From the NCBI GenBank assembly GCA_003599855.1, contig QZKG01000022.1, positions 29,927-93,926 of the forward strand: a stretch of DNA of 64,000 bases, given 5' to 3'. This DNA is from Gaiellales bacterium (GTDB taxonomy: Bacteria > Actinomycetota > Thermoleophilia > BMS3ABIN01). Under the pieces are notes generated by a model that was not told the origin of the DNA, ran no database searches, and saw nothing but the letters and a program-made list of their open reading frames with translations. Both the position numbers and the translations under genes were made by a program. Below are positions 23,618 to 44,126 of the stretch, one piece after another (position 1 is the first letter of the stretch; every line of letters starts with the position of its first letter).

Positions 23618-23652
23618 CCGAGCGCAGCGAGTGCGAAGGATCTATGTCTTAA

Positions 23653-23700
23653 CGGTTTTCTCCCGCATAAAGATTATACCTGCCAGGGCAGGGCATCATT
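23653..23700 (+). repeat. Module-2 repeat (CGGUUUUCUCCCGCAUAAAGAUUAUACCUGCCAGGGCAGGGCAUCAUU); second copy at 26811..26856
   Basis: ~80% identity over ~46 nt between the two copies. Confidence 0.5.
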
Positions 23701-23714
23701 CTACTAAAGCGTCT

Positions 23715-23768
23715 GGGGGTATTGCGTAGCGAAGGCTCGCAGTGTTGCCTGAGCCAGCAATGCTCCCG
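23715..23768 (+). repeat. Intergenic structured repeat, module 3 (GGGGGUAUUGCGUAGCGAAGGCUCGCAGUGUUGCCUGAGCCAGCAAUGCUCCC), copy 1
   Basis: Near-identical reverse-complement copy at 36382..36440; partial variant at 33996..34026. Predicted 10-bp closing stem plus two internal hairpins. Confidence 0.6.
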
Positions 23769-25499
23769 GCGCGCAGTATTTCTGCTATCCTTGGCTCTGT
23801 GAACGACCAGACCACATCCCCGTCCGGGCGCAGCGACTTCATCCGTGAGATCGTCGCCGCCGACCTGCGCGAAGGCCGCCACGAGGCCGTCGTCACCCGC
23901 TTCCCGCCGGAGCCCAACGGCTACCTCCACATCGGCCACGCCAAGTCCATCTGCCTCAATTTCGGCATCGCCCGGGAGTTCGACGGCCGCTGCCACCTGC
24001 GCTTCGACGACACCAACCCGGTGAAAGAGGAGCAGGAGTACATCGACGCCATCGAGGCCGACGTCCGCTGGCTGGGGTTCGACTGGGGCGAACACCTGTA
24101 CTTCGCCTCCGACTACTTCGAGCAGCTCTACGATTGGGCCTGCCACCTGGTTAAGAACGGCAAGGCCTACGTGGACGACCTCAGCGCCGACGAGATCCGC
24201 GAGCACCGGGGCACGCTCACCGAGCCGGGCCGTGAGAGCCCCTGGCGGGACCGCCCGGCGGAGGAGAGCCTCGACCTGCTGGAGCGCATGCGCGCCGGCG
24301 AGTTCCCCGATGGTTCGCGCGTGCTCAGGGCGCGCATCGACATGAGCTCGGGGAACATCAACCTGCGCGACCCCGTGCTCTACCGCATCCTCCACTCGGC
24401 GCACCCGCGTACCGGCGATGCCTGGTGCATCTACCCGACTTACGATTTCGCCCACGGGCAATCCGACGCCATCGAGGGCATCACCCATTCTATCTGCACC
24501 CTGGAGTTCCAGGACCACCGGCCGCTCTACGACTGGCTGATCGAGAACCTGCCGGTGCCCTCGCGGCCGCGCCAGTACGAGTTCGCGCGGCTCAACCTCA
24601 CCCATACCGTCCTCTCCAAGCGCACGCTTATGCGCCTGGTGAACGACGGCCACGTGCGCGGCTGGGACGACCCCAGGATGCCGACGCTCACGGGCCTCAG
24701 GCGGCGCGGGTTCCCCGCCGAGGGGATCCGCGACTTCGCCAACGCGGTGGGCGTCGCCAAAAACGAGGGCGTGGTGGAAGTCGGGGTGCTGGAGCATGCC
24801 GTGCGGGACGTGCTCAACCGCCAGGCGCTCAGGCGCTTCGCTGTCCTCAATCCCCTGAAGGTGGTCATCGAGAACTACCCCGAAGGCCAGGTCGAGGAGA
24901 TGGAAGCGGTCAACAACCCGGAGGACCCCTCCGCCGGCACCCGCCCCGTGCCCTTCACGCGGGAGCTCTGGATCGAGCGGGACGACTTCATGGAGGAGCC
25001 GCCGCGCAAGTTCTTCCGCCTGGCCCCCGGCCGCGAGGTGCGGCTCAGGTATGCTTACTTCATCACTTGCCGGGAGGTCGTGAAGGACGGCGAGGGCGAA
25101 ATCGTCGAGCTTAAGTGCACCTACGACCCGGAGACCCGCGGCGGGGACGCCCCCGATGGGCGCCGCGTCAAGGCCACCCTCCACTGGCTCTCGACGGCCC
25201 ACGCGCTAAACGCGGAGGTCCGGCTCTACGACCACCTCTTCCGTGAGCCTTATCCCGGCTCGGACGGCCGCGATGCGTTCGAGGACCTGAACCCCGAATC
25301 CGAGACCGTGCTGCATGACTGCTTCATCGAGCCCGCTCTGGCCGAGCTGCCCACCGGCGAGGCCGTGCAGTTCGAACGGCTGGGCTACTTCTGCCCCGAT
25401 CCGGATTCAGCGCCGGACGCGCCCGTGTTCAACCGGACGCTCACGCTGAGGGACACCTGGGCGAAGCTGCAGGCGCAGGGAAAGCAGGACAAGGCCTGA
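23760..25499 (+). CDS. glnS: Glutaminyl-tRNA synthetase
   Basis: HIGH motif [23 protein letters not shown]-type motif, [12 protein letters not shown]-terminus like E. coli GlnRS. Starts 23742/23760 lie inside an intergenic repeat. GTG 23799 is a plausible true start. Confidence 0.9.
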
Positions 25500-25573: not shown

Positions 25574-25648
25574 TGGCGAGTGGCCTAATGGTAAGGCACC
25601 TGACTCTGGATCAGGGGATTGAAGGTTCGAGTCCTTCCTCGCCAGCCA
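25574..25648 (+). tRNA. tRNA-Gln (anticodon CUG), CCA encoded
   Basis: UGGCGAG acceptor; D-arm GCC-UAAUGGUAA-GGC; anticodon stem CCUGA/UCAGG with loop CUCUGGA; T-arm GAAGG-UUCGAGU-CCUUC; CUCGCCA-G-CCA. Matches the bacterial tRNA-Gln pattern (GGUAAGGCACC). Confidence 0.95.
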
Positions 25649-25690
25649 CGTTGCCCTCCTATCCGAATCTTCGATGAGCGCCCCTTGCTG

Positions 25691-26770
25691 TCATCCTGAG
25701 TCCGAACACCCCTTATTGTCATCCTCGATCAGGTTGAGGATAAGGCCGATCATCAGCTCCTTCTGCCTGGCTTCGCTCTCAGCGACCAGCAGCGCCAGGG
25801 CTACCATGGCATTATCCGCCAGGCGCGGATTGCCATCCGGCCGCAGCAGCAAGCTGTTCCGCCGCAGGTACTCCAAAAAAAGCAGCGTACCGATGCGCTT
25901 GTTGCCGTCGACAAAAGGATGATCCTTGATAACGAGGTAAAGCAGATTTGCTGCTCGCGCCTGCACCGTGGGATAGAGCAACTCGCCACCGGAAGTCTGC
26001 TCGATGGCACCCAGAATAGCACTGAGATGCTCACCGCGCTCCTGACCGAATATGCCCGTTGCCTCACCTCGCGAAGAAAGCGCAGCCCTGAGTTATTCAA
26101 TGGCAACCCGCGCTTCGATTAACGTAAGCTCCGCTGTTGGCTGAACCGGCCGTGCCGGCGCTTCGGCCAACCGGTCCTCGTCATATTGGAGTAGCAGTTT
26201 CCAGGCACGCGTATATTGCTCTACGATTTCCAGAATCGCTCGCCCTTCATCCGCAACCAGTTCATTGCGGGAAAGCGTTCGGGAGAGCAGCGCTACAGCC
26301 TGCTCTATTTCGCTGAACCCCTTTGCACTGATCCGCTTCTCGTTGATCGTGAAACCGCGCAGCAGATGATCGCGCAGGGTCCTGGTCGCCCAGATACGGA
26401 ACTGGGTGCCGCGCTTGGAATTTACACGATAACCAACAGAGAGAATGGCATCGAGGTTGAAGTGTTCGATCTCACGTACCACCTGGCGCTCACCCTCGAT
26501 TTGAACTGTTGCATTTTTTGCAACGGTTGCCTCTCGCTCCAACTCTCCCGTTCGAAAAATAGTGCCTAGGTGTCGGGATATAACAGATTTATCCCGCTCA
26601 AAAAGGTCTGATATTTGCGTCAGGGTCAGCCAGACCGTCTCCTCTTCGAGGCGAACATCAAGCTCCACCTGACCATCTGGTGATTCATAAAGGATGATTT
26701 CACCCTCGGAACCGTTCAAACCGGACCTCCGCGAAATAGCTTCCACAAGGGGTGGCAATTCCCGACGCAA
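25691..26770 (-). pseudogene. RhuM-family / Fic-Doc family protein interrupted by one in-frame TAA (26093..26095)
   Basis: N-terminal RhuM-like domain (GEIILYESPDGQVELDVRLEEETVWLTLTQ...). After the TAA the same frame continues into LRAALSSRGE...IKDHPFVDGNKRIGTLL (Fic/Doc motif HxFxDGNKR). The two track ORFs 26093..26770 and 25691..25981 are one frame. Confidence 0.7.
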
Positions 26771-26869
26771 TCAATGCTCACTGACTTTAATCGGCATTAG
26801 CGGTTTTCTCTCACGGCGAGATTATACCTGCCGGACGGTGTCATTATTTTTGGAAGCTCTTATTACCTT

Positions 26870-27125
26870 CAGGGGAATTAGGGACAGCATACCTATTTAT
26901 CCCAATGTCGGATCACGCTTCGCTGATCCGACCTACAGCTGTGCTGTCCTGCATACAAATAAGGGCAAAATAAGGGGACAAAATAAGGGGACACCATACT
27001 TATTTATCCAATCGTTTCAATGAATCAGTATGGTGTCCCCTTGTTTCGATCCATACCTATTTATCCAATCGTTTCAATGAATTAGGTAAGGTATCCCCTT
27101 ATTTCCGTGTCCCCTTATTTCCCGC
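26870..27125. repeat. Palindrome-rich MITE/PATE-like repeat cluster inserted into the IS3 orfB
   Basis: Hairpin GTCGGATCA-N7-CTGATCCGAC. 13-bp inverted repeat GGGGACACCATAC...GTATGGTGTCCCC flanking 35 nt. Direct repeats CATACYTATTTATCCAATCGTTTCAATGAAT (x2 plus a partial). ATAAGGGGACA x2 and its inverse x2. Confidence 0.55.
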
Positions 27126-27722
27126 TGCTCGTCGGTGGTGCGCCGGTAGCCGTAGCCTGTGTGTTTCACGGCGATCCGCTCCAAGGGCCCCCTCAAGGCC
27201 CGGCGCTTCTCCTCGTAGTCACATGCGTGTCTTAGGTGGTAATAGAAGGTGGAGCGCGGCAAATCAAACACCGAGAGCGCGGCCGGCAGACCGAAGTCGG
27301 CCTGAGTCTCCTTGACCTTGGCGACCTTCTCGCTGGTGCTCATGCGCCCCGGCCCAAGAAGTTTTTTAAAAGGACGATCTCGACTTCCTTTTTGCCCAGC
27401 AGCCGTTCCATCTCTGCGAGCTTTTCTCCACTTCGTTTTGCGAGCTTTCATTTTCGAAGATCTGGGGGCCTTGCTCCAGAAAGCGTTTCTTCCAGAGCCC
27501 CACCGAGTTGGGATGAACTCCGTACGCCTTGGCGATCTGCGCCGGTGTTTTCTCGCCGGAGATAAGTTCCAGTACTACCTGGAATTTGAGCCTGGGGGAA
27601 ATCCTCCTGCCACTTTTTGCCATAGAATTTGACCTCCTTCGCTGGCGAGAATCGTATCATTCCCGCCGGTCGTCCGGAGGTCAAATCTCACAATTTGGAA
27701 GTGTCCAAGATTTGGGGGTCAT
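27125..27722 (-). mobile_element. IS3-family insertion sequence remnant (left end and orfA intact, orfB truncated after ~70 codons)
   Basis: OrfA 27366..27623 (HTH transposase MAKSGRRISPRLKFQVVLELISGEKTPAQIAKAYGVHPNSVGLWKKRFLEQG). A6C slippery site at ~27361-27371 with OrfB in the -1 frame (...ALSVFDLPRSTFYYHLRHA...). Putative IRL beginning TGACCCCCAAATC at 27722. Confidence 0.75.
27366..27623 (-). CDS. IS3-family transposase OrfA
   Basis: See mobile element. Confidence 0.8.
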   Translation of the reverse strand: MAKSGRRISPRLKFQVVLELISGEKTPAQIAKAYGVHPNSVGLWKKRFLEQGPQIFENESSQNEVEKSSQRWNGCWAKRKSRSSF

Positions 27723-27732
27723 ATCCGATCGC

Positions 27733-28053
27733 TCAGGTGTTTAGCTGGGTTGCTGCAAGAAAACCCATCACAATAATAAATATCCAAACTCCCATGATAA
27801 TGAGCGGTAACATGATGACTATATGTAATGCATTATTATAACGATCACAATAAATGTGCTTGTTCAGCAAGAGCCAGTATGGAATAGCTTGAAAAGCGTA
27901 GGTAAATACTATTGCTGCCAGTAACAATCCCGGTGTGAATGTATCCCTTGTGATGATTGTAACTACAAGACTCCAGATGAGGACATTCCCCAGCCATATC
28001 ATCAGACTGATGAAGAAGCGTTTTCGAAGAGGTTTGTTTATCTGTCCCATCAT
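27733..28053 (-). CDS. Small AT-rich integral membrane protein (3 TM), hypothetical; co-oriented 37 nt downstream of the large secreted protein gene
   Basis: Hydrophobic 106-aa ORF. Local GC is far below the genome average. Confidence 0.45.
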   Translation of the reverse strand: MMGQINKPLRKRFFISLMIWLGNVLIWSLVVTIITRDTFTPGLLLAAIVFTYAFQAIPYWLLLNKHIYCDRYNNALHIVIMLPLIIMGVWIFIIVMGFLAATQLNT

Positions 28054-28089
28054 GCTGTCTCCCTCACTCGGCTTTCGCTTCTCGGTTCT

Positions 28090-31000
28090 CTATGGCAGCT
28101 GTCCCGGGAACCAGTACTCTCTTTGAGCATCATCCTTGCAGCTTGCGTACGATATCGTCGTGAAGTTACTGATGTTTGAAGGTACATAGTATTTGAGCAT
28201 GATCGTCTCGCTTGCGCCCGGCATGAGGTTGCCTGTTGTTAGCGGCAGAGGCGTCACCACGTTTACGGACGAAGGCGTGCAGAACGATGCGTGGACTGTG
28301 GGTTCGAATGCCTCTCCGGTGCCGGTATTCTTCATCGAGTAGTCGATGGAAAGTCTCCGGTTATAGTAGTCGTCCCAGCTGGCCCAGTAGACTCGCTTTT
28401 TTGTCCAGTTGAGAGAGGGAATGGTGGTAGCCACCTCAGCTACGTTGGATAGTTCCGATCGACGCAGGACTTCATCCTCGGCTTTCAGGGCAAAGTAATA
28501 CATCGTTCCCGCCTTGAGGCCGGTTATTGTTACTGTCTCGGGGGAGCCTGCCGGCTGGGGCAGCGGGATGATCTCGACAAGCTCGGCTTCCTTCCAGTTC
28601 ATCTCTGTGATGGGAGTTTCAGAATACCGTACGTCATAGTACTGGGCGCTGCCGGCGTTGCCATCGTCTCCTGGAGCCGTGAATGATATCGTGACGGTAT
28701 CGGATGAGGCACTGACGAGTGACAGGTCGCTGACCGCCGCCGGCGGATTCAGGTCGATATCATGATGGGCGATGCTGTCTGGTGGGCGTAGCTCATCGAC
28801 AACGCCGTCGCCCTCGCTGTCGACCTGAAGTTGATAGTCAGCGTTCCGCGCCAGTTCCAGATGGACTCTCGTCGATGCGTTCACCGGTACAGCCACATAG
28901 TTGACGGTATCCGCCGAGTTTGTGGTTTTGTCCGGTGAGCCGACCGTAAAATCGAAGGTGCCTTCGCCGGTGCCTTCAAGTTCGAAACGATAACCGGCAG
29001 AAGCGTCGCCGCCGTGGATGATGATGGTCTTGCGGTGCAGTTCGGGTATCTCAATATATTCAGCGCCTGGGATCTGCTCGTCGAGGCTCCCGGCTTCATT
29101 TATCCCCACGTGGTTGCCGGCTGAATCGTAGAGGTGGATATCCACCGGAGAAGCGACGCTGCCGTAAGTATCGCTTGCGGACACTCCGGCACACTGCGGG
29201 TCGCCATTGTTACAAAGCCCGTCGGACCAGGAGAAGGGATCGTCCCACCTGCCGCTGTGCTCTGGTGCGGCTGCGGGGCCTTGGGGAGCATCCAGCCAAG
29301 GTACACCCACTATCTCTCCCCACGCACCCTGATACGCAAGCCACCCATAAGGTCCGCCAACCAGGCTGCCGACACGCGCTGAGCCCACATCGGGAAGGAC
29401 TTCGACCTGTGGTTCAAGAGGCCCATTAGCAGTTTTTTCAGTCGTGTCGTTTGGGTCAAAAGGAAAATCATCAACTGGAACCGTGTGCACACCAGCAATG
29501 AAATATGTCGCATGTGATCCTTTTGCGATATATACGATAGGATGATCGCCCCGTTTTTCAACATATGACCAATCACCTTTAATGCCGCCAAGGTGCTGGC
29601 TAAGAGAGACGCTCTCTGGCGACAATTCACCCAGACCTTCGAGGTCAACCTGGACCATCTCCCAGTCACCTTCGTGAAAGTTGCCGAAATTAGTGAAGAA
29701 CCCGAAAGTATTGAAGTAGTAGAGCATCCAATACTGAAGGGCAACCCTGTCGCCCGTCGAGTTGCGTGTGACTCTGGCGTAATAGAGCTCGGGATAGTTA
29801 TATTGAGACAGCAAATTATTGTATGGATTTACGAAATGATACTTCAAAGTCCACTCTGTCCATCGAGCATCTATCCATGAAGACCTGACATTCCCCGGCA
29901 AATCGATGTACTTCCCTCCATCTGGATTACCTGGTTCATCACTCGCACCGAAATAGTTGCCGAGTGATCCAAGAGATAATTCGGGCCACACCAACAGGGT
30001 ATTATCAGGCCAGTTGTCTATGCGCTCCATCAGTTTCGCTCCCTCCCCATCGACGAACATGCCTACCGGCCGCGGCTGAAAGTACTCCTCGTGGTGCAGA
30101 TACAAGTAGGGCGCATACCTCTCCGCCAGTTCCTGCGCCCTGTCACCAAGGCGGTTGTGATAGAGGTTGCGCACCCCGTCCCGGTCGTCGCTCCAGACTA
30201 TGTGCGTCCCGGAGACGACGGGATTGATGGCCAGCACCGGGCTCCTTGACACCTGCTGGGTCTCACCCGTAGCGAGGTCGTGGAGGTAGACCTGTGGTGG
30301 GGCGCCGCGGGGGTTGGCTGCATCCCAGACGACCTTGTCGTGCGAGTCGGTGTCGATGTCGAGGCTCTCTCCTTCCATGCTGCTGATCAGCTGAGGTTGT
30401 GCCGCAGGTTCGTTCAGGTCGAGGACGTAGACCCCCACGTCGGGGTCGCCCAGCGAGCCTTTTCGGAAGGCGAGGGTATCGCCGGCCAGGGAGTAGCTGT
30501 CAGCAGCACCGACGACGCGTTCGGCGCTGCCGTCCAGTTTTCTGGCTTTCAGTTCCGTCTGGCCGGAAGACGAGTCCTTCCAGGTGACCCAGGAGCCGGA
30601 GATGTCCGGTTCGTACTGCTTGTCGGGCAGAGCCGCTACCGGCTGGGCGCCGGCTCCGGGGTTGTCCAGATCATAGAGGTAGATGTCGGGGTTGGTGGAT
30701 GAGTACCGCTCGTTCTGGAAGGCTATCTTGTGGCCGCTTAAGGCGATCTCCCAGGGGTTGAAGCCGCTCAAGGGTATGGCATTGTCCAGGCAACCGGTCT
30801 CAGGGCAGCCGTTACCGAGGAATGTGTAGTGGATCTGTCTGGTCGTGCCGCTCTGTTCGAGCCAGACGACGAGGTCGCCGTCGATCAGGGGGCTCGACTG
30901 GGTGATATTGCTGGCCAACTAGGGAACCGGCAGGTAAGTCGGATTGGCCGGATCGGAGATATCCCTGAAGACGATGCGGTAACGGGCGCTGCCATTATAG

Positions 31001-43899: not shown

Positions 43900-44016
<117 letters not shown>

Positions 44017-44126
44017 ATTGCGTATGTAACGCTATTTGATTTTCCGTTAAAGATGATAGCAGACAAAAAAACCGGTTTCCAGTTGCGGGGGAACCGGCGG
44101 GTTGATGGGGTTCTGCGCCGGGCCGT

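What the first reader, a model, noticed from the sequence alone, without database searches (positions are those of the whole stretch)
26870..27125. Palindrome-rich MITE/PATE-like element nested inside the IS3 orfB
The IS3 OrfB frame stops making sense at ~27125, where a 255-bp block begins. The block contains three components:
- a 9-bp perfect hairpin (GTCGGATCA..CTGATCCGAC);
- a 13-bp inverted repeat (GGGGACACCATAC / GTATGGTGTCCCC) enclosing 35 nt;
- two ~31-bp direct repeats (CATACYTATTTATCCAATCGTTTCAATGAAT) plus direct and inverted copies of ATAAGGGGACA.
This hairpin-dense, non-coding, AT-rich architecture resembles IS200/IS605-derived palindrome-associated elements (subterminal hairpins recognised by Y1 transposases). 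It is not a terminal inverted repeat of IS3. It appears to have truncated the IS3 transposase.
Basis: seen in the sequence. Interest (0 to 1): 0.5.

Follow-up and report, generated by a model that had tools for sequence, protein, structure and literature searches.

The report
Orphan tyrosine-transposase repeat cluster
The 250-bp palindrome-rich block is a decayed, gene-less cluster of the inverted-repeat ends of a little-studied family of small mobile elements (TIRtrons, carrying Y1/HUH "TIRYT" transposases), plus one classical REP hairpin, lying against a broken IS3 copy; it is an ordinary member of a kind described in 2013.

Summary
Window 26874-27122 holds a 13-nt x3 array, a 57-nt x1.9 tandem repeat, several inverted repeats and a perfect 9-bp hairpin. 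It folds far better than shuffles (z = -8.5).

The unit AAATAAGGGGACACCATACTTATTT belongs to the GGGGWSAS terminal-inverted-repeat (TIR) family. In other genomes and metagenomes this TIR flanks about 225-aa Y1/HUH transposase genes, called TIRYT/TIRtrons by Di Nocera 2013 and subclass 2.1 by Quentin 2018.

A profile built only from TIRs flanking nine such genes hits the 64-kb window four times at E < 0.01, all inside the block. Elsewhere the family has two size classes: about 0.75-kb gene-bearing copies and 44-127-nt gene-less hairpin "minis". The block is a cluster of such minis, partly tandemly duplicated. The 9-bp hairpin is a canonical GTAG-tagged REP on the minus strand.

No Y1 gene lies in the window. 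IS3 OrfB homology stops at the block and does not resume beyond it, so the block sits at a truncation junction and is not nested in orfB.

Verdict: new member of a known kind, of modest interest.

The parts
26874..26901 (+). Degenerate left-oriented TIR (GGAATTAGGGACAGCATACCTATTTATC), the first arm of the decayed mini U0
   Evidence: nhmmer hit with the profile of gene-flanking TIRs, E = 0.0029. It pairs with 26937-26949 (13 nt, 85%, I7).
26907..26936 (-). Canonical GTAG-tagged REP-like hairpin: GTAG + GTCGGATCA-gcgaagcg-TGATCCGAC. It lies between the arms of U0.
   Evidence: Perfect 9-bp stem (I10). GTAG sits directly at the foot on the minus strand. Near-identical REPs occur in Pseudoalteromonas, Ralstonia and enterobacterial replicons.
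26937..26951 (-). Decayed right-oriented TIR remnant of U0 (AGCTGTGCTGTCCTG)
   Evidence: Inverted repeat I7. Similarity to the GGGGACAG TIR variant is by inspection.
26957..26980 (+). Outer iterations of the terminal motif (AAATAAGGGCA, AAATAAGGGGACA), lying ahead of the full left TIR
   Evidence: TRF reports a 13-nt x3 array at 26957-26993. Motif search. The same outer iteration is seen in 7 of 32 unbiased TIRs elsewhere, against a 3.9% background.
26981..27008 (+). Full left TIR L1: AAATAAGGGGACACCATACTTATTTATC (GGGGWSAS = GGGGACAC)
   Evidence: nhmmer E = 1.4e-6. A 22-nt stretch is identical to the TIR next to the Y1 pseudogenes in L069. The 21-nt core also lies beside the Y1 genes of L126, L134, L140 and L144.
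27019..27046 (-). Right TIR R1 (AAACAAGGGGACACCATACTGATTCATT on the minus strand). With L1 it forms a 66-nt hairpin mini.
   Evidence: nhmmer E = 2.1e-4. Inverted repeat I1, 27 nt at 89%. The single-stranded DNA fold is -19.1 kcal/mol, z = -7.0.
27051..27107 (+). Second copy of the 57-nt tandem unit (inner segment plus right TIR). It contains right TIR R2 (GGGGATAC variant) at 27078-27107 on the minus strand.
   Evidence: TRF reports period 57, 1.9 copies, 89% matches. Direct repeats D2 and D3. nhmmer E = 0.0011 for 27107-27078.
27107..27122 (-). Outermost inverted copy of the terminal motif (GGAAATAAGGGGACAC on the minus strand). This is the right boundary of the block.
   Evidence: Exact motif match at 27108-27120. 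Weak nhmmer hit, E = 0.11. 14-nt perfect inverted repeat with 26981-26994 (I4).
27123..27623 (-). IS3-family remnant: orfA (27366-27623) plus only the first ~70 codons of orfB's conserved region. This is context, not part of the element.
   Evidence: Pfam HTH and transposase hits for OrfA. tblastn with an annotated IS3 OrfB covers only residues 1-69, at 27343-27137, E = 1.9e-8, with no rve part anywhere in the window.

Best explanation
The block is an orphan, partly decayed cluster of TIRtron-type terminal inverted repeats. These are gene-less miniature derivatives, comparable to MITEs or REPINs, of a ~0.78-kb element that encodes a TIRYT Y1/HUH tyrosine transposase.

Anatomy:
- A degenerate mini (U0), whose arms enclose a GTAG-type REP.
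- Three outer iterations of AAATAAGGGGACA.
- A well-preserved 66-nt mini (L1/R1).
- A tandem duplicate of its inner-plus-right part (R2).
- A last terminal motif (R3).

Shown here:
- Sequence membership of the TIRs.
- Their physical linkage to Y1 genes in other genomes.
- The two size classes of the family.
- The strong hairpin potential of the block.
- The absence of a Y1 gene in the window.

Inferred:
- Such minis are made and moved in trans by a cognate TIRYT. The enzyme would cleave and rejoin single-stranded DNA at TIR pairs folded as hairpins. This is by analogy with E. coli TnpA_REP, which cleaves and recombines BIMEs in vitro, and with IS608/ISDra2.
- The tandem and iterated copies are by-products of such cleavage and rejoining, or of slippage.
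- The copy in this Gaiellales MAG lies in a low-GC island next to tRNA-Gln. It is most likely an inert relic that arrived with, or accumulated in, foreign DNA. Its only likely present effect is structural (a DNA or RNA hairpin).
For: 1. Motif. The TIRs contain GGGGACAC or GGGGATAC, which fits GGGGWSAS. That is the published signature of TIRs flanking TIRYT genes (PMC3733652; PMC6006769).

2. Gene linkage found without asking for it. A scan for the tandem motif alone returned loci in which the motif lies just upstream of ~222-231-aa ORFs starting M(A/P)R(L/I)AR..PHH(V/I)TQRGN, with the inverted motif right after the stop codon. These ORFs are Pfam Y1_Tnp, E 1e-14 to 1e-19.

3. Same-subfamily evidence. 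A scan for the window's own 21-nt TIR core found 27 metagenome stretches.
   - Intact TIR-gene-TIR units: L126 and L134.
   - An intact gene with its right TIR but cut at the contig's left end: L140.
   - A frameshifted gene copy: L144.
   - Apparent gene-end remnants, by inspection of the DNA beside the TIR: L148 and L150.
   - Many 47-118-nt hairpin minis.

4. Blind test. An nhmmer profile built only from TIRs flanking nine Y1 genes gives four hits at E < 0.01 in the 64-kb window. All are in the block, with two plus-oriented followed by two minus-oriented.

5. Closest DNA relative. In L069 (a Ca. Acetothermia MAG) the identical 22-nt TIR is tandemly iterated next to two degraded Y1 pseudogenes within 2.3 kb.

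6. Bimodal spacing. GGGG-to-CCCC distances are 44-127 nt for minis and 722-768 nt for gene-bearing copies. The window's L1/R1 pair is 54 nt.

7. Folding. The block has z = -8.5 and the U1 mini z = -7.0.

8. Protein relatives. The best solved structure is TnpA_REP, 4ER8. In-vitro cleavage and recombination of BIMEs by TnpA_REP is published (PMC3333891).
Against: - No TIRYT or other Y1 gene lies in the 64-kb window.
- The cluster is the only copy in the window. Multi-copy status and a cognate enzyme in this genome are therefore unproven.
- No target-site duplication or conserved target was seen.
- No empty-site comparison was available. The nearest relative's locus is not syntenic.
- TIRYT activity has never been shown experimentally. 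Only two papers in the held library mention the family.
- Quentin et al. doubted that the C-terminal HTH reads this motif.
- The related loci were found with patterns taken from the block, so conservation of the motif itself is partly circular. The gene linkage and the 3' half of the TIR are the independent parts.
- Two of the five TIR-like units are weak (E = 0.003 and 0.11).
Confidence: 0.8

Rival explanations
1. This is the first reader's reading: an IS200/IS605-derived palindrome-associated element (PATE), whose subterminal hairpins are recognised by a TnpA_IS200 enzyme and which inserted into IS3 orfB.
For: - The associated proteins are in Pfam Y1_Tnp, 'Transposase IS200 like'.
- The block is dense in hairpins.
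- It abuts the point where OrfB homology ends.
Against: - The linked genes match REP_Tyr_transpos about 15 orders of magnitude better than transpos_IS200. They match the TnpA_REP structure better than ISDra2 TnpA (6.6e-6 against 0.1).
- The elements have terminal inverted repeats with identical ends. IS200/IS605 has none (established knowledge; abstract of PMC6006769).
- No TnpA or TnpB gene lies in the window.
- The rest of orfB is absent on the far side of the block, so simple nesting is excluded.
Confidence: 0.05
2. The block is mainly a canonical REP/BIME cluster (GTAG-tagged REPs mobilised by a RAYT), and the TIR-like units are incidental.
For: - The hairpin at 26907-26936 (minus strand) is GTAG plus a perfect 9-bp stem. 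That is the defining REP form. It resembles REPs of proteobacterial replicons.
- Another GTAG-containing repeat occurs three times in the window.
Against: - Only one of the units carries GTAG. The other four or five match the TIRtron TIR profile and lack GT[AG]G at a hairpin foot.
- This REP is single-copy in the window.
- No RAYT gene lies in the window.
Confidence: 0.07
3. The block is a set of protein-binding sites for something other than a Y1 enzyme. Candidates are integrase arm-type or att sites of the tRNA-Gln island, iterons of a replication origin, or multi-site ends of a Tn7- or Mu-like transposon.
For: - Direct and inverted iterations of a 13-nt motif resemble arm sites, iterons or multi-site transposon ends.
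- The block lies in a low-GC island beside tRNA-Gln.
Against: - No integrase, Rep, TnsB or MuA-like gene was seen among the ORFs next to the block.
- No duplicate of the tRNA 3' end marks an att site.
- In nine independent loci the same repeats bracket a Y1 gene and nothing else, spanning about 0.75 kb.
Confidence: 0.04
4. The block is a domesticated regulatory hairpin (a terminator, mRNA stabiliser or antisense RNA source) acting between the IS3 remnant and the RhuM-like gene, whatever its origin.
For: - Stable hairpins form on both strands.
- REPs and MITEs are reported to affect termination and mRNA stability (PMC3733652 background).
- A promoter-like duplicated segment lies just to the left, at 26801-26832.
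Against: - No intrinsic-terminator-like site lies in the block. The only promoter-like hit does not exceed the shuffle expectation.
- Rfam gives only sub-threshold generic hairpin (miRNA) matches.
- Both neighbours are broken genes, so there is little to regulate.
Confidence: 0.04

Closest known systems
TIRtrons / TIRYT-associated TIR repeats (Di Nocera, De Gregorio & Rocco 2013, BMC Genomics 14:522). They probably correspond to TnpA_Y1 subclass 2.1 of Quentin et al. 2018.
   Same: - The GGGGWSAS motif is in the repeat.
- The same repeat flanks ~225-aa Y1/HUH genes in inverted orientation.
- Gene-less copies occur as singles, dimers and clusters.
- The family occurs in genomes that lack classical REP families and across many phyla.
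   Different: - Here there is only an orphan cluster, with no TIRYT gene within 64 kb.
- The host is a Gaiellales (Actinomycetota) MAG. The held text of the 2013 paper never mentions Actinobacteria.
- The held text of the two papers does not mention three features seen here: tandem 11-16-nt iterations of the outer motif, the conserved 3' half (NATAC-YTAWTT), and a 57-nt tandem duplication. Their figures could not be read.
REP / BIME / REPIN with RAYT (TnpA_REP), as in E. coli and Pseudomonas
   Same: - Short palindromic non-coding repeats occur as inverted doublets that fold into long hairpins.
- They are linked to a Y1/HUH enzyme whose gene they flank.
- They form clusters and tandem arrays.
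- One unit of the block (26907-26936, minus strand) is a true GTAG REP.
   Different: - The main units lack the 5' GT[AG]G foot.
- The conserved motif is GGGGACA.
- The enzyme is longer, with a C-terminal extension.
- Gene-bearing copies look IS-like, for example two copies in 2.3 kb in L069.
IS200/IS605 family and its PATE derivatives
   Same: - The transposase is in the Y1/HUH superfamily.
- Hairpin-forming ends imply single-strand DNA chemistry.
   Different: - IS200/IS605 ends are not inverted repeats, and LE and RE hairpins differ.
- The linked proteins here are closer to TnpA_REP than to TnpA_IS200.
Bacterial MITEs (RUP, NEMIS/Correia, ERIC, Nezha)
   Same: - Size is 70-300 bp (the outer unit 26957-27122 is 166 bp).
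- TIRs are 15-30 bp.
- There is no coding capacity.
- They are presumed to be mobilised in trans.
   Different: - Classical MITEs derive from DDE insertion sequences and make target-site duplications.
- Here the parent encodes a Y1 enzyme and no duplication is evident.

Membership tests
TIRtron-type TIR repeats (TIRYT-associated) | The repeat carries the GGGGWSAS motif. | tested here: met
   GGGGACAC occurs at 26987 (+) and 27040 (-), and GGGGATAC at 27098 (-). The outer iterations are GGGGACAC at 27114 (-) and GGGGACAA at 26974 (+); the last does not fit the final S. A decayed AGGGACAG lies at 26881.
TIRtron-type TIR repeats (TIRYT-associated) | The same repeat flanks a TIRYT (Y1/HUH) gene in inverted orientation. 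| tested here: met
   Met in related loci, not in the window. L126 and L134 carry the window's own TIR core. L070, L079, L099 and L109 carry sister variants. L140 shows only the right TIR because the contig is cut. The profile of those TIRs hits only the block in the window.
TIRtron-type TIR repeats (TIRYT-associated) | Gene-less copies are organised as singles, dimers or clusters. | tested here: met
   The block holds two plus-oriented and two or three minus-oriented TIRs within 250 bp. The same dimer form occurs in L003, L033, L064, L128, L136, L137 and L142.
TIRtron-type TIR repeats (TIRYT-associated) | A cognate TIRYT gene and further copies exist in the same genome. | not testable with these tools
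   No Y1 gene and no other TIR lie in the 64-kb window. The MAG's other contigs could not be fetched.
REP / REPIN (RAYT-associated) | A 5' GT[AG]G tetranucleotide lies at the foot of a stem-loop. | tested here: not met
   Not met by the GGGGACA units. Met only by the separate hairpin at 26907-26936 on the minus strand.
REP / REPIN (RAYT-associated) | High copy number in extragenic space, with REPs flanking a single-copy RAYT. | not testable with these tools
   Only the window is available. The GTAG hairpin is single-copy in it.
IS200/IS605-derived PATE | The ends are distinct subterminal hairpins without terminal inverted repeats. | tested here: not met
   The ends are inverted repeats of about 25-27 nt, both in gene-bearing and in mini copies.
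IS200/IS605-derived PATE | The associated transposase is TnpA of the IS200 clade (with or without TnpB). | tested here: not met
   NCBIfam scores are REP_Tyr_transpos E 1e-18 to 1e-23, against transpos_IS200 E 7e-3 to 5e-6. The best PDB match is TnpA_REP. No TnpB gene adjoins the TIRs in the gene-bearing loci inspected.
IS3 terminal inverted repeat | It lies at the end of a complete IS3 copy, beyond an intact orfB. | tested here: not met
   OrfB is cut after about residue 69 of its conserved region, and about 215 codons and the right end are missing.
MITE (generic) | 70-300 bp, 15-30-bp TIRs, no coding capacity, and a target-site duplication. | tested here: inconclusive
   Size, TIRs and lack of coding capacity are met. 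No target duplication is recognisable in 22 copies.

The most novel reading that the evidence does not exclude
TIRtrons may be an active insertion-sequence family that is still functionally uncharacterised. Its Y1/HUH transposase would recognise a ~25-nt terminal repeat, WTAAGGGGACAS-NATAC-YTAWTT. That repeat is conserved almost unchanged across at least five or six phyla: Pseudomonadota, Desulfobacterota, Fermentibacterota, Bipolaricaulota, Planctomycetota and Actinomycetota.

The tandem 11-16-nt outer iterations of the motif occur in about 20% of unbiased copies. They could be either multiple binding sites for the C-terminal HTH domain or footprints of staggered cleavage and rejoining. Either would mean a mode of end recognition different from both IS200/IS605 and RAYT/REP. 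The window's block would then be a fossil record of that chemistry: end iteration, a 57-nt tandem copy, and adjacency to a deletion endpoint in IS3.
Probability: 0.25. Interest if true: 0.55.

Novelty: new member of a known kind. Interest (0 to 1): 0.3.

Why it matters
The practical value is for annotation. This kind of AT-rich, palindrome-dense block in a high-GC genome can be recognised as orphan TIRtron ends rather than as a new element, an att site or an origin.

It also adds evidence that the GGGGWSAS TIR family has a miniature, gene-less form, and that it reaches Actinomycetota, Bipolaricaulota and other poorly sampled phyla.

The family itself is under-studied. Only two papers in the held library mention it and there is no biochemistry. 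The conserved 25-nt end and the intact elements found here (L126, L134) give concrete substrates for a first in-vitro test of a TIRYT enzyme.

For the biology of this window the block is probably inert debris in a degraded genomic island.

Tried and rejected
- Integrative-element att site. I looked for a repeat of the tRNA-Gln 3' end anywhere in the window. There is none.
- Rfam. At gathering threshold only the tRNA and an FMN riboswitch are found. At E <= 1 only sub-threshold miRNA-precursor models match, which simply reflects a long hairpin.
- Plasmid and phage collections. The whole block finds only the REP hairpin, in one Pseudoalteromonas megaplasmid. Viral contigs gave 5 loci for the tandem motif, none with the TIR architecture, and 0 for the TIR core.
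- Y1 gene in the window. tblastn and an HMM of seven Y1 (TIRYT-like) proteins from the loci against all ORFs of 50 aa or more found nothing.
- Fetching the rest of the source contig or MAG by exact protein look-up failed five times. A relative with 89%-identical GlnRS (L152) is not syntenic and has no TIR, so there is no empty site.
- Hairpin within each TIR (AAATAAG / CTTATTT around a GGGACACCATA loop). The arms are often complementary, for example GAGATAAG/CTTATCTC, CAGATAAG/CTTATCTG and GAATTAAG/CTTAATTC. Across 75 distinct TIR strings, however, most pairs are invariant A-T and many are mismatched. The test is inconclusive.
- Target-site duplication or target motif. None is evident.
- Terminator or promoter role. 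There is no signal above shuffles.
- Noise in the genome scan. Many of its 118 loci are unrelated GGGGA(T/C)AA simple repeats (cyanobacteria, Bacteroidota, Armatimonadota). Only 45 of the 152 loci searched carry a real TIR by the profile.

Full report
**1. Observation**

Window 26870-27125 was read directly and analysed for repeats.

- A perfect 9-bp hairpin lies at 26907-26915 / 26924-26932.
- GGGGACACCATAC / GTATGGTGTCCCC extends to 27-nt arms at 89% complementarity (26981-27007 / 27020-27046).
- Two 31-nt direct repeats lie at 26995-27025 and 27052-27082. Shuffles give none.
- Six copies of AAATAAGGGGACA occur, three direct and three inverted. The window has 7 matches with up to 2 mismatches, against 0.41 expected.
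- Tandem Repeats Finder summarises the core as a 13-nt x3 array (26957-26993) followed by a 57-nt x1.9 tandem repeat (26994-27105, 89% matches).
- As single-stranded DNA the block folds at -52.1 kcal/mol, against -23.3 +/- 3.4 for shuffles (z = -8.5). The inner 72 nt fold at -19.1 kcal/mol (z = -7.0).
- GC falls to 45-49% in a 65-70% GC genome.
- The only ORF across the block has no family match.

Small corrections: the 13-nt arms enclose 28 nt rather than 35, and the limits are about 26874-27122.

**2. Context**

- glnS (about 23.8-25.5 kb, + strand) is followed by tRNA-Gln at 25574-25648.
- A low-GC island runs to about 31.4 kb. It holds fragments of a RhuM/Fic gene on the minus strand, the block, an IS3 remnant (orfA 27366-27623 plus the start of orfB) and a 942-aa fn3 protein.
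- GlnRS is 100% identical to a protein of a Gaiellales MAG. The host is therefore an actinomycete of the Thermoleophilia lineage.

**3. Relation to IS3**

An annotated IS3-family OrfB from an E. coli plasmid aligns to the window only over its residues 1-69 (27343-27137, E = 1.9e-8). The catalytic part is nowhere in the window. To the left of the block lies the RhuM-like gene, not the rest of orfB. The block therefore abuts a deletion endpoint at 27122/27123. It is not nested in orfB, and nothing shows that it caused the truncation.

**4. What the repeats are**

Many are unrelated GGGGAYAA simple repeats. A coherent class stands out in several phyla. Its form is one to three direct copies of (A/T)TAAGGGGACA, the last continuing as GGGGACAS-NATAC-YTAWTT. 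Then comes either a short loop and the exact inverse, or an ORF.

*The linked ORFs.* In the gene-bearing loci L035, L062, L070, L079, L099 and L109 the ORF is 222-231 aa and starts M(A/P)R(L/I)AR..PHH(V/I)TQRGN. L044 holds a truncated copy. The inverted motif lies within a few bases of the stop codon, or overlaps it. The proteins are:
- Pfam Y1_Tnp, E 1e-14 to 1e-19;
- much closer to NCBIfam REP-associated tyrosine transposase than to IS200 transposase;
- best matched in the PDB by E. coli TnpA_REP, 4ER8, E = 6.6e-6.

*Metagenome scan for the window's own TIR core.* A scan for AAGGGGACACCATACYTATTT gave 27 stretches.
- L126 and L134 are intact TIR-gene-TIR units.
- L140 has an intact gene and its right TIR, but the contig is cut at the left end.
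- L144 has a frameshifted gene.
- L148 and L150 appear, by inspection, to keep only a gene-end remnant.
- Many others are 47-118-nt hairpin minis.

*Closest DNA relative.* In L069 (a Ca. Acetothermia MAG) the identical 22-nt TIR is iterated three times, with two further outer motifs, next to degraded Y1 pseudogenes. The TIR and pseudogene start occur twice within 2.3 kb.

**5. Blind test**

I built an nhmmer profile from the TIRs that flank nine Y1 genes only, and searched the window. The hits were:

| Coordinates | Strand | E-value |
|---|---|---|
| 26981-27008 | + | 1.4e-6 |
| 27046-27019 | - | 2.1e-4 |
| 27107-27078 | - | 1.1e-3 |
| 26874-26901 | + | 2.9e-3 |
| 27122-27107 | - | 0.11 |

Nothing else scored below 0.26.

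Across 152 loci, 45 carry such TIRs. The spacing of paired TIRs is bimodal: 44-127 nt for minis and 722-768 nt for gene-bearing copies. The window's L1/R1 pair measures 54 nt.

**6. Literature**

- Di Nocera et al. 2013 named Y1 genes flanked by inverted repeats rather than REPs 'TIRYT', and the units 'TIRtrons'. They reported the consensus GGGGWSAS in many of the TIRs, and noted that TIR repeats occur as singles, dimers or clusters (PMC3733652).
- Quentin et al. 2018 placed 20 of the 26 TIRYTs in TnpA_Y1 subclass 2.1. These are long proteins with a C-terminal HTH-like extension, found in 14.9% of strains, with no REPs. The authors pointed out that the motif does not resemble a DnaA box (PMC6006769).
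- No other paper in the held library mentions TIRYT, and no activity has been shown.

**7. Anatomy of the block in these terms**

- U0 (26874-26951) is a decayed mini of the GGGGACAG variant. Its arms enclose GTAGGTCGGATCAGCGAAGCGTGATCCGAC on the minus strand.
- That enclosed sequence is a textbook GTAG-footed REP. Close relatives occur in Pseudoalteromonas, Ralstonia and enterobacterial replicons.
- Two outer motif iterations follow (26957-26980).
- Then comes the well-preserved mini L1/R1 (26981-27046).
- A tandem duplicate of its inner-plus-right part follows, ending in R2 (27051-27107).
- A last terminal motif, R3, lies at 27107-27122.
- Outer iteration is a family trait. It is seen in 7 of 32 TIRs from the unbiased metagenome sample, against 3.9% of background windows.

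**8. Mechanism**

Shown: family membership of the repeats, their linkage to Y1 genes elsewhere, the two size classes, and hairpin potential.

Inferred: minis arise from gene-bearing TIRtrons and are moved in trans by a TIRYT that cuts and rejoins single-stranded DNA at folded TIR pairs.
- This rests on analogy with E. coli TnpA_REP, which cleaves and recombines BIMEs in vitro (PMC3333891), and with IS608/ISDra2 (abstract of PMC6006769).
- Tandem and iterated copies would be by-products of that chemistry or of slippage.

The window has no Y1 gene. U0 and R2 are decayed, and both neighbouring genes are broken. The copy here is therefore most likely an inert relic in foreign DNA.

I could not test copy number or the presence of a TIRYT in the rest of the genome. 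I also could not find an empty site.

**9. Rivals**

- IS200/IS605 PATE fails on end structure and on the clade of the linked enzyme.
- A pure REP/BIME reading fits only one unit.
- att sites, iterons or Tn7-like ends lack any partner gene. They are also contradicted by the consistent ~0.75-kb Y1-only units.
- A regulatory hairpin role has no support from the scans.

**10. Verdict**

The block is a real feature. It is a new member, in a new host lineage, of a known but poorly studied kind. The IS200/IS605-PATE label and the claim of nesting in orfB were not. Interest is modest, at 0.3.

The most novel reading still open is that TIRtrons are an active insertion-sequence family that is still functionally uncharacterised, with a distinctive mode of end recognition and a TIR conserved across phyla.

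Noticed in passing
window 23649-23728 and 26797-26880 (core 23653-23684 / 26801-26832): A promoter-like segment, CGGTTTTCTCyCrC-N4-AGATTATACCTGCC, occurs twice on the same strand: upstream of glnS and immediately left of the TIR block. Similarity runs for about 80 nt. In both copies it ends where a different repeat element begins.
   Followed up: partly
window 23716-23770 (+), 36381-36444 (-), 33996-34020 (+): A second repeat family, GGGGGTATTGCGTAGCGAAGGCTCGCaAGTGTTGCCTGAGCCAGCAATGCcCC. Two copies are 94% identical over 64 nt. It contains GTAG and is partly palindromic by eye.
   Followed up: partly
window 23742-23800: The mechanical GTG start of glnS at 23742 lies inside the second repeat family noted above. 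The 566-aa database protein corresponds to a start at 23799.
   Followed up: partly
window 25650-31400: A low-GC island (45-60% against 65-70%) lies directly downstream of tRNA-Gln (25574-25648). It holds a fragmented RhuM/Fic-DOC gene, an IS3 remnant and a 942-aa fn3/Vps62-like protein. No integrase was seen among the ORFs listed in this interval, and there is no att duplicate.
   Followed up: partly
window 43901-44020 (-): FMN riboswitch, 113.7 bits, well above the gathering score.
   Followed up: no
window 23573, 23605, 25689: TGTCATCCTGAG(C/T) occurs three times around glnS and tRNA-Gln. It is not significant against shuffles, though the sequence looked like a possible dispersed repeat.
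   Followed up: partly
L062 (Kiloniellales MAG), both sides of the TIRYT gene: The TIRtron is bracketed by two hairpin minis. Beyond them, a ~100-nt flank (gtacccggcgcccgcggcttcgtccaggtggcgg...) is duplicated on both sides. This suggests a segmental duplication linked to the element. The same MAG has minis on at least four contigs (L062, L064, L072, L102).
   Followed up: no
L109 4783-5448 and 5610-6368: Two different Y1 genes lie side by side: a TIRYT with GGGGACAC TIRs, and a second, more divergent Y1 gene whose N-terminus lacks the PHH(V/I)TQRGN start.
   Followed up: no
L057, L086, L088, L090, L112 (one Armatimonadota MAG): A different multi-copy palindromic repeat is built from inverted arrays of GGGATAA(G/A)GG units, GGGATAAGGGGATA...TTATCCCTTTATCCC. 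It occurs on five contigs of the same MAG.
   Followed up: no
L003 7775-7880: In a Ca. Fermentibacterales MAG, a TIR mini appears, by sequence inspection, to lie directly downstream of a tRNA-like 3' end (..ggttcgagtcccgtccggtccgcca). This echoes the tRNA-proximal position of the island in the window.
   Followed up: no
L121 11404-11470 (viral contig end): At least six tandem copies of AATAAGGGGAC run to the contig end of an IMG/VR contig. No TIR architecture or Y1 gene was detected.
   Followed up: no
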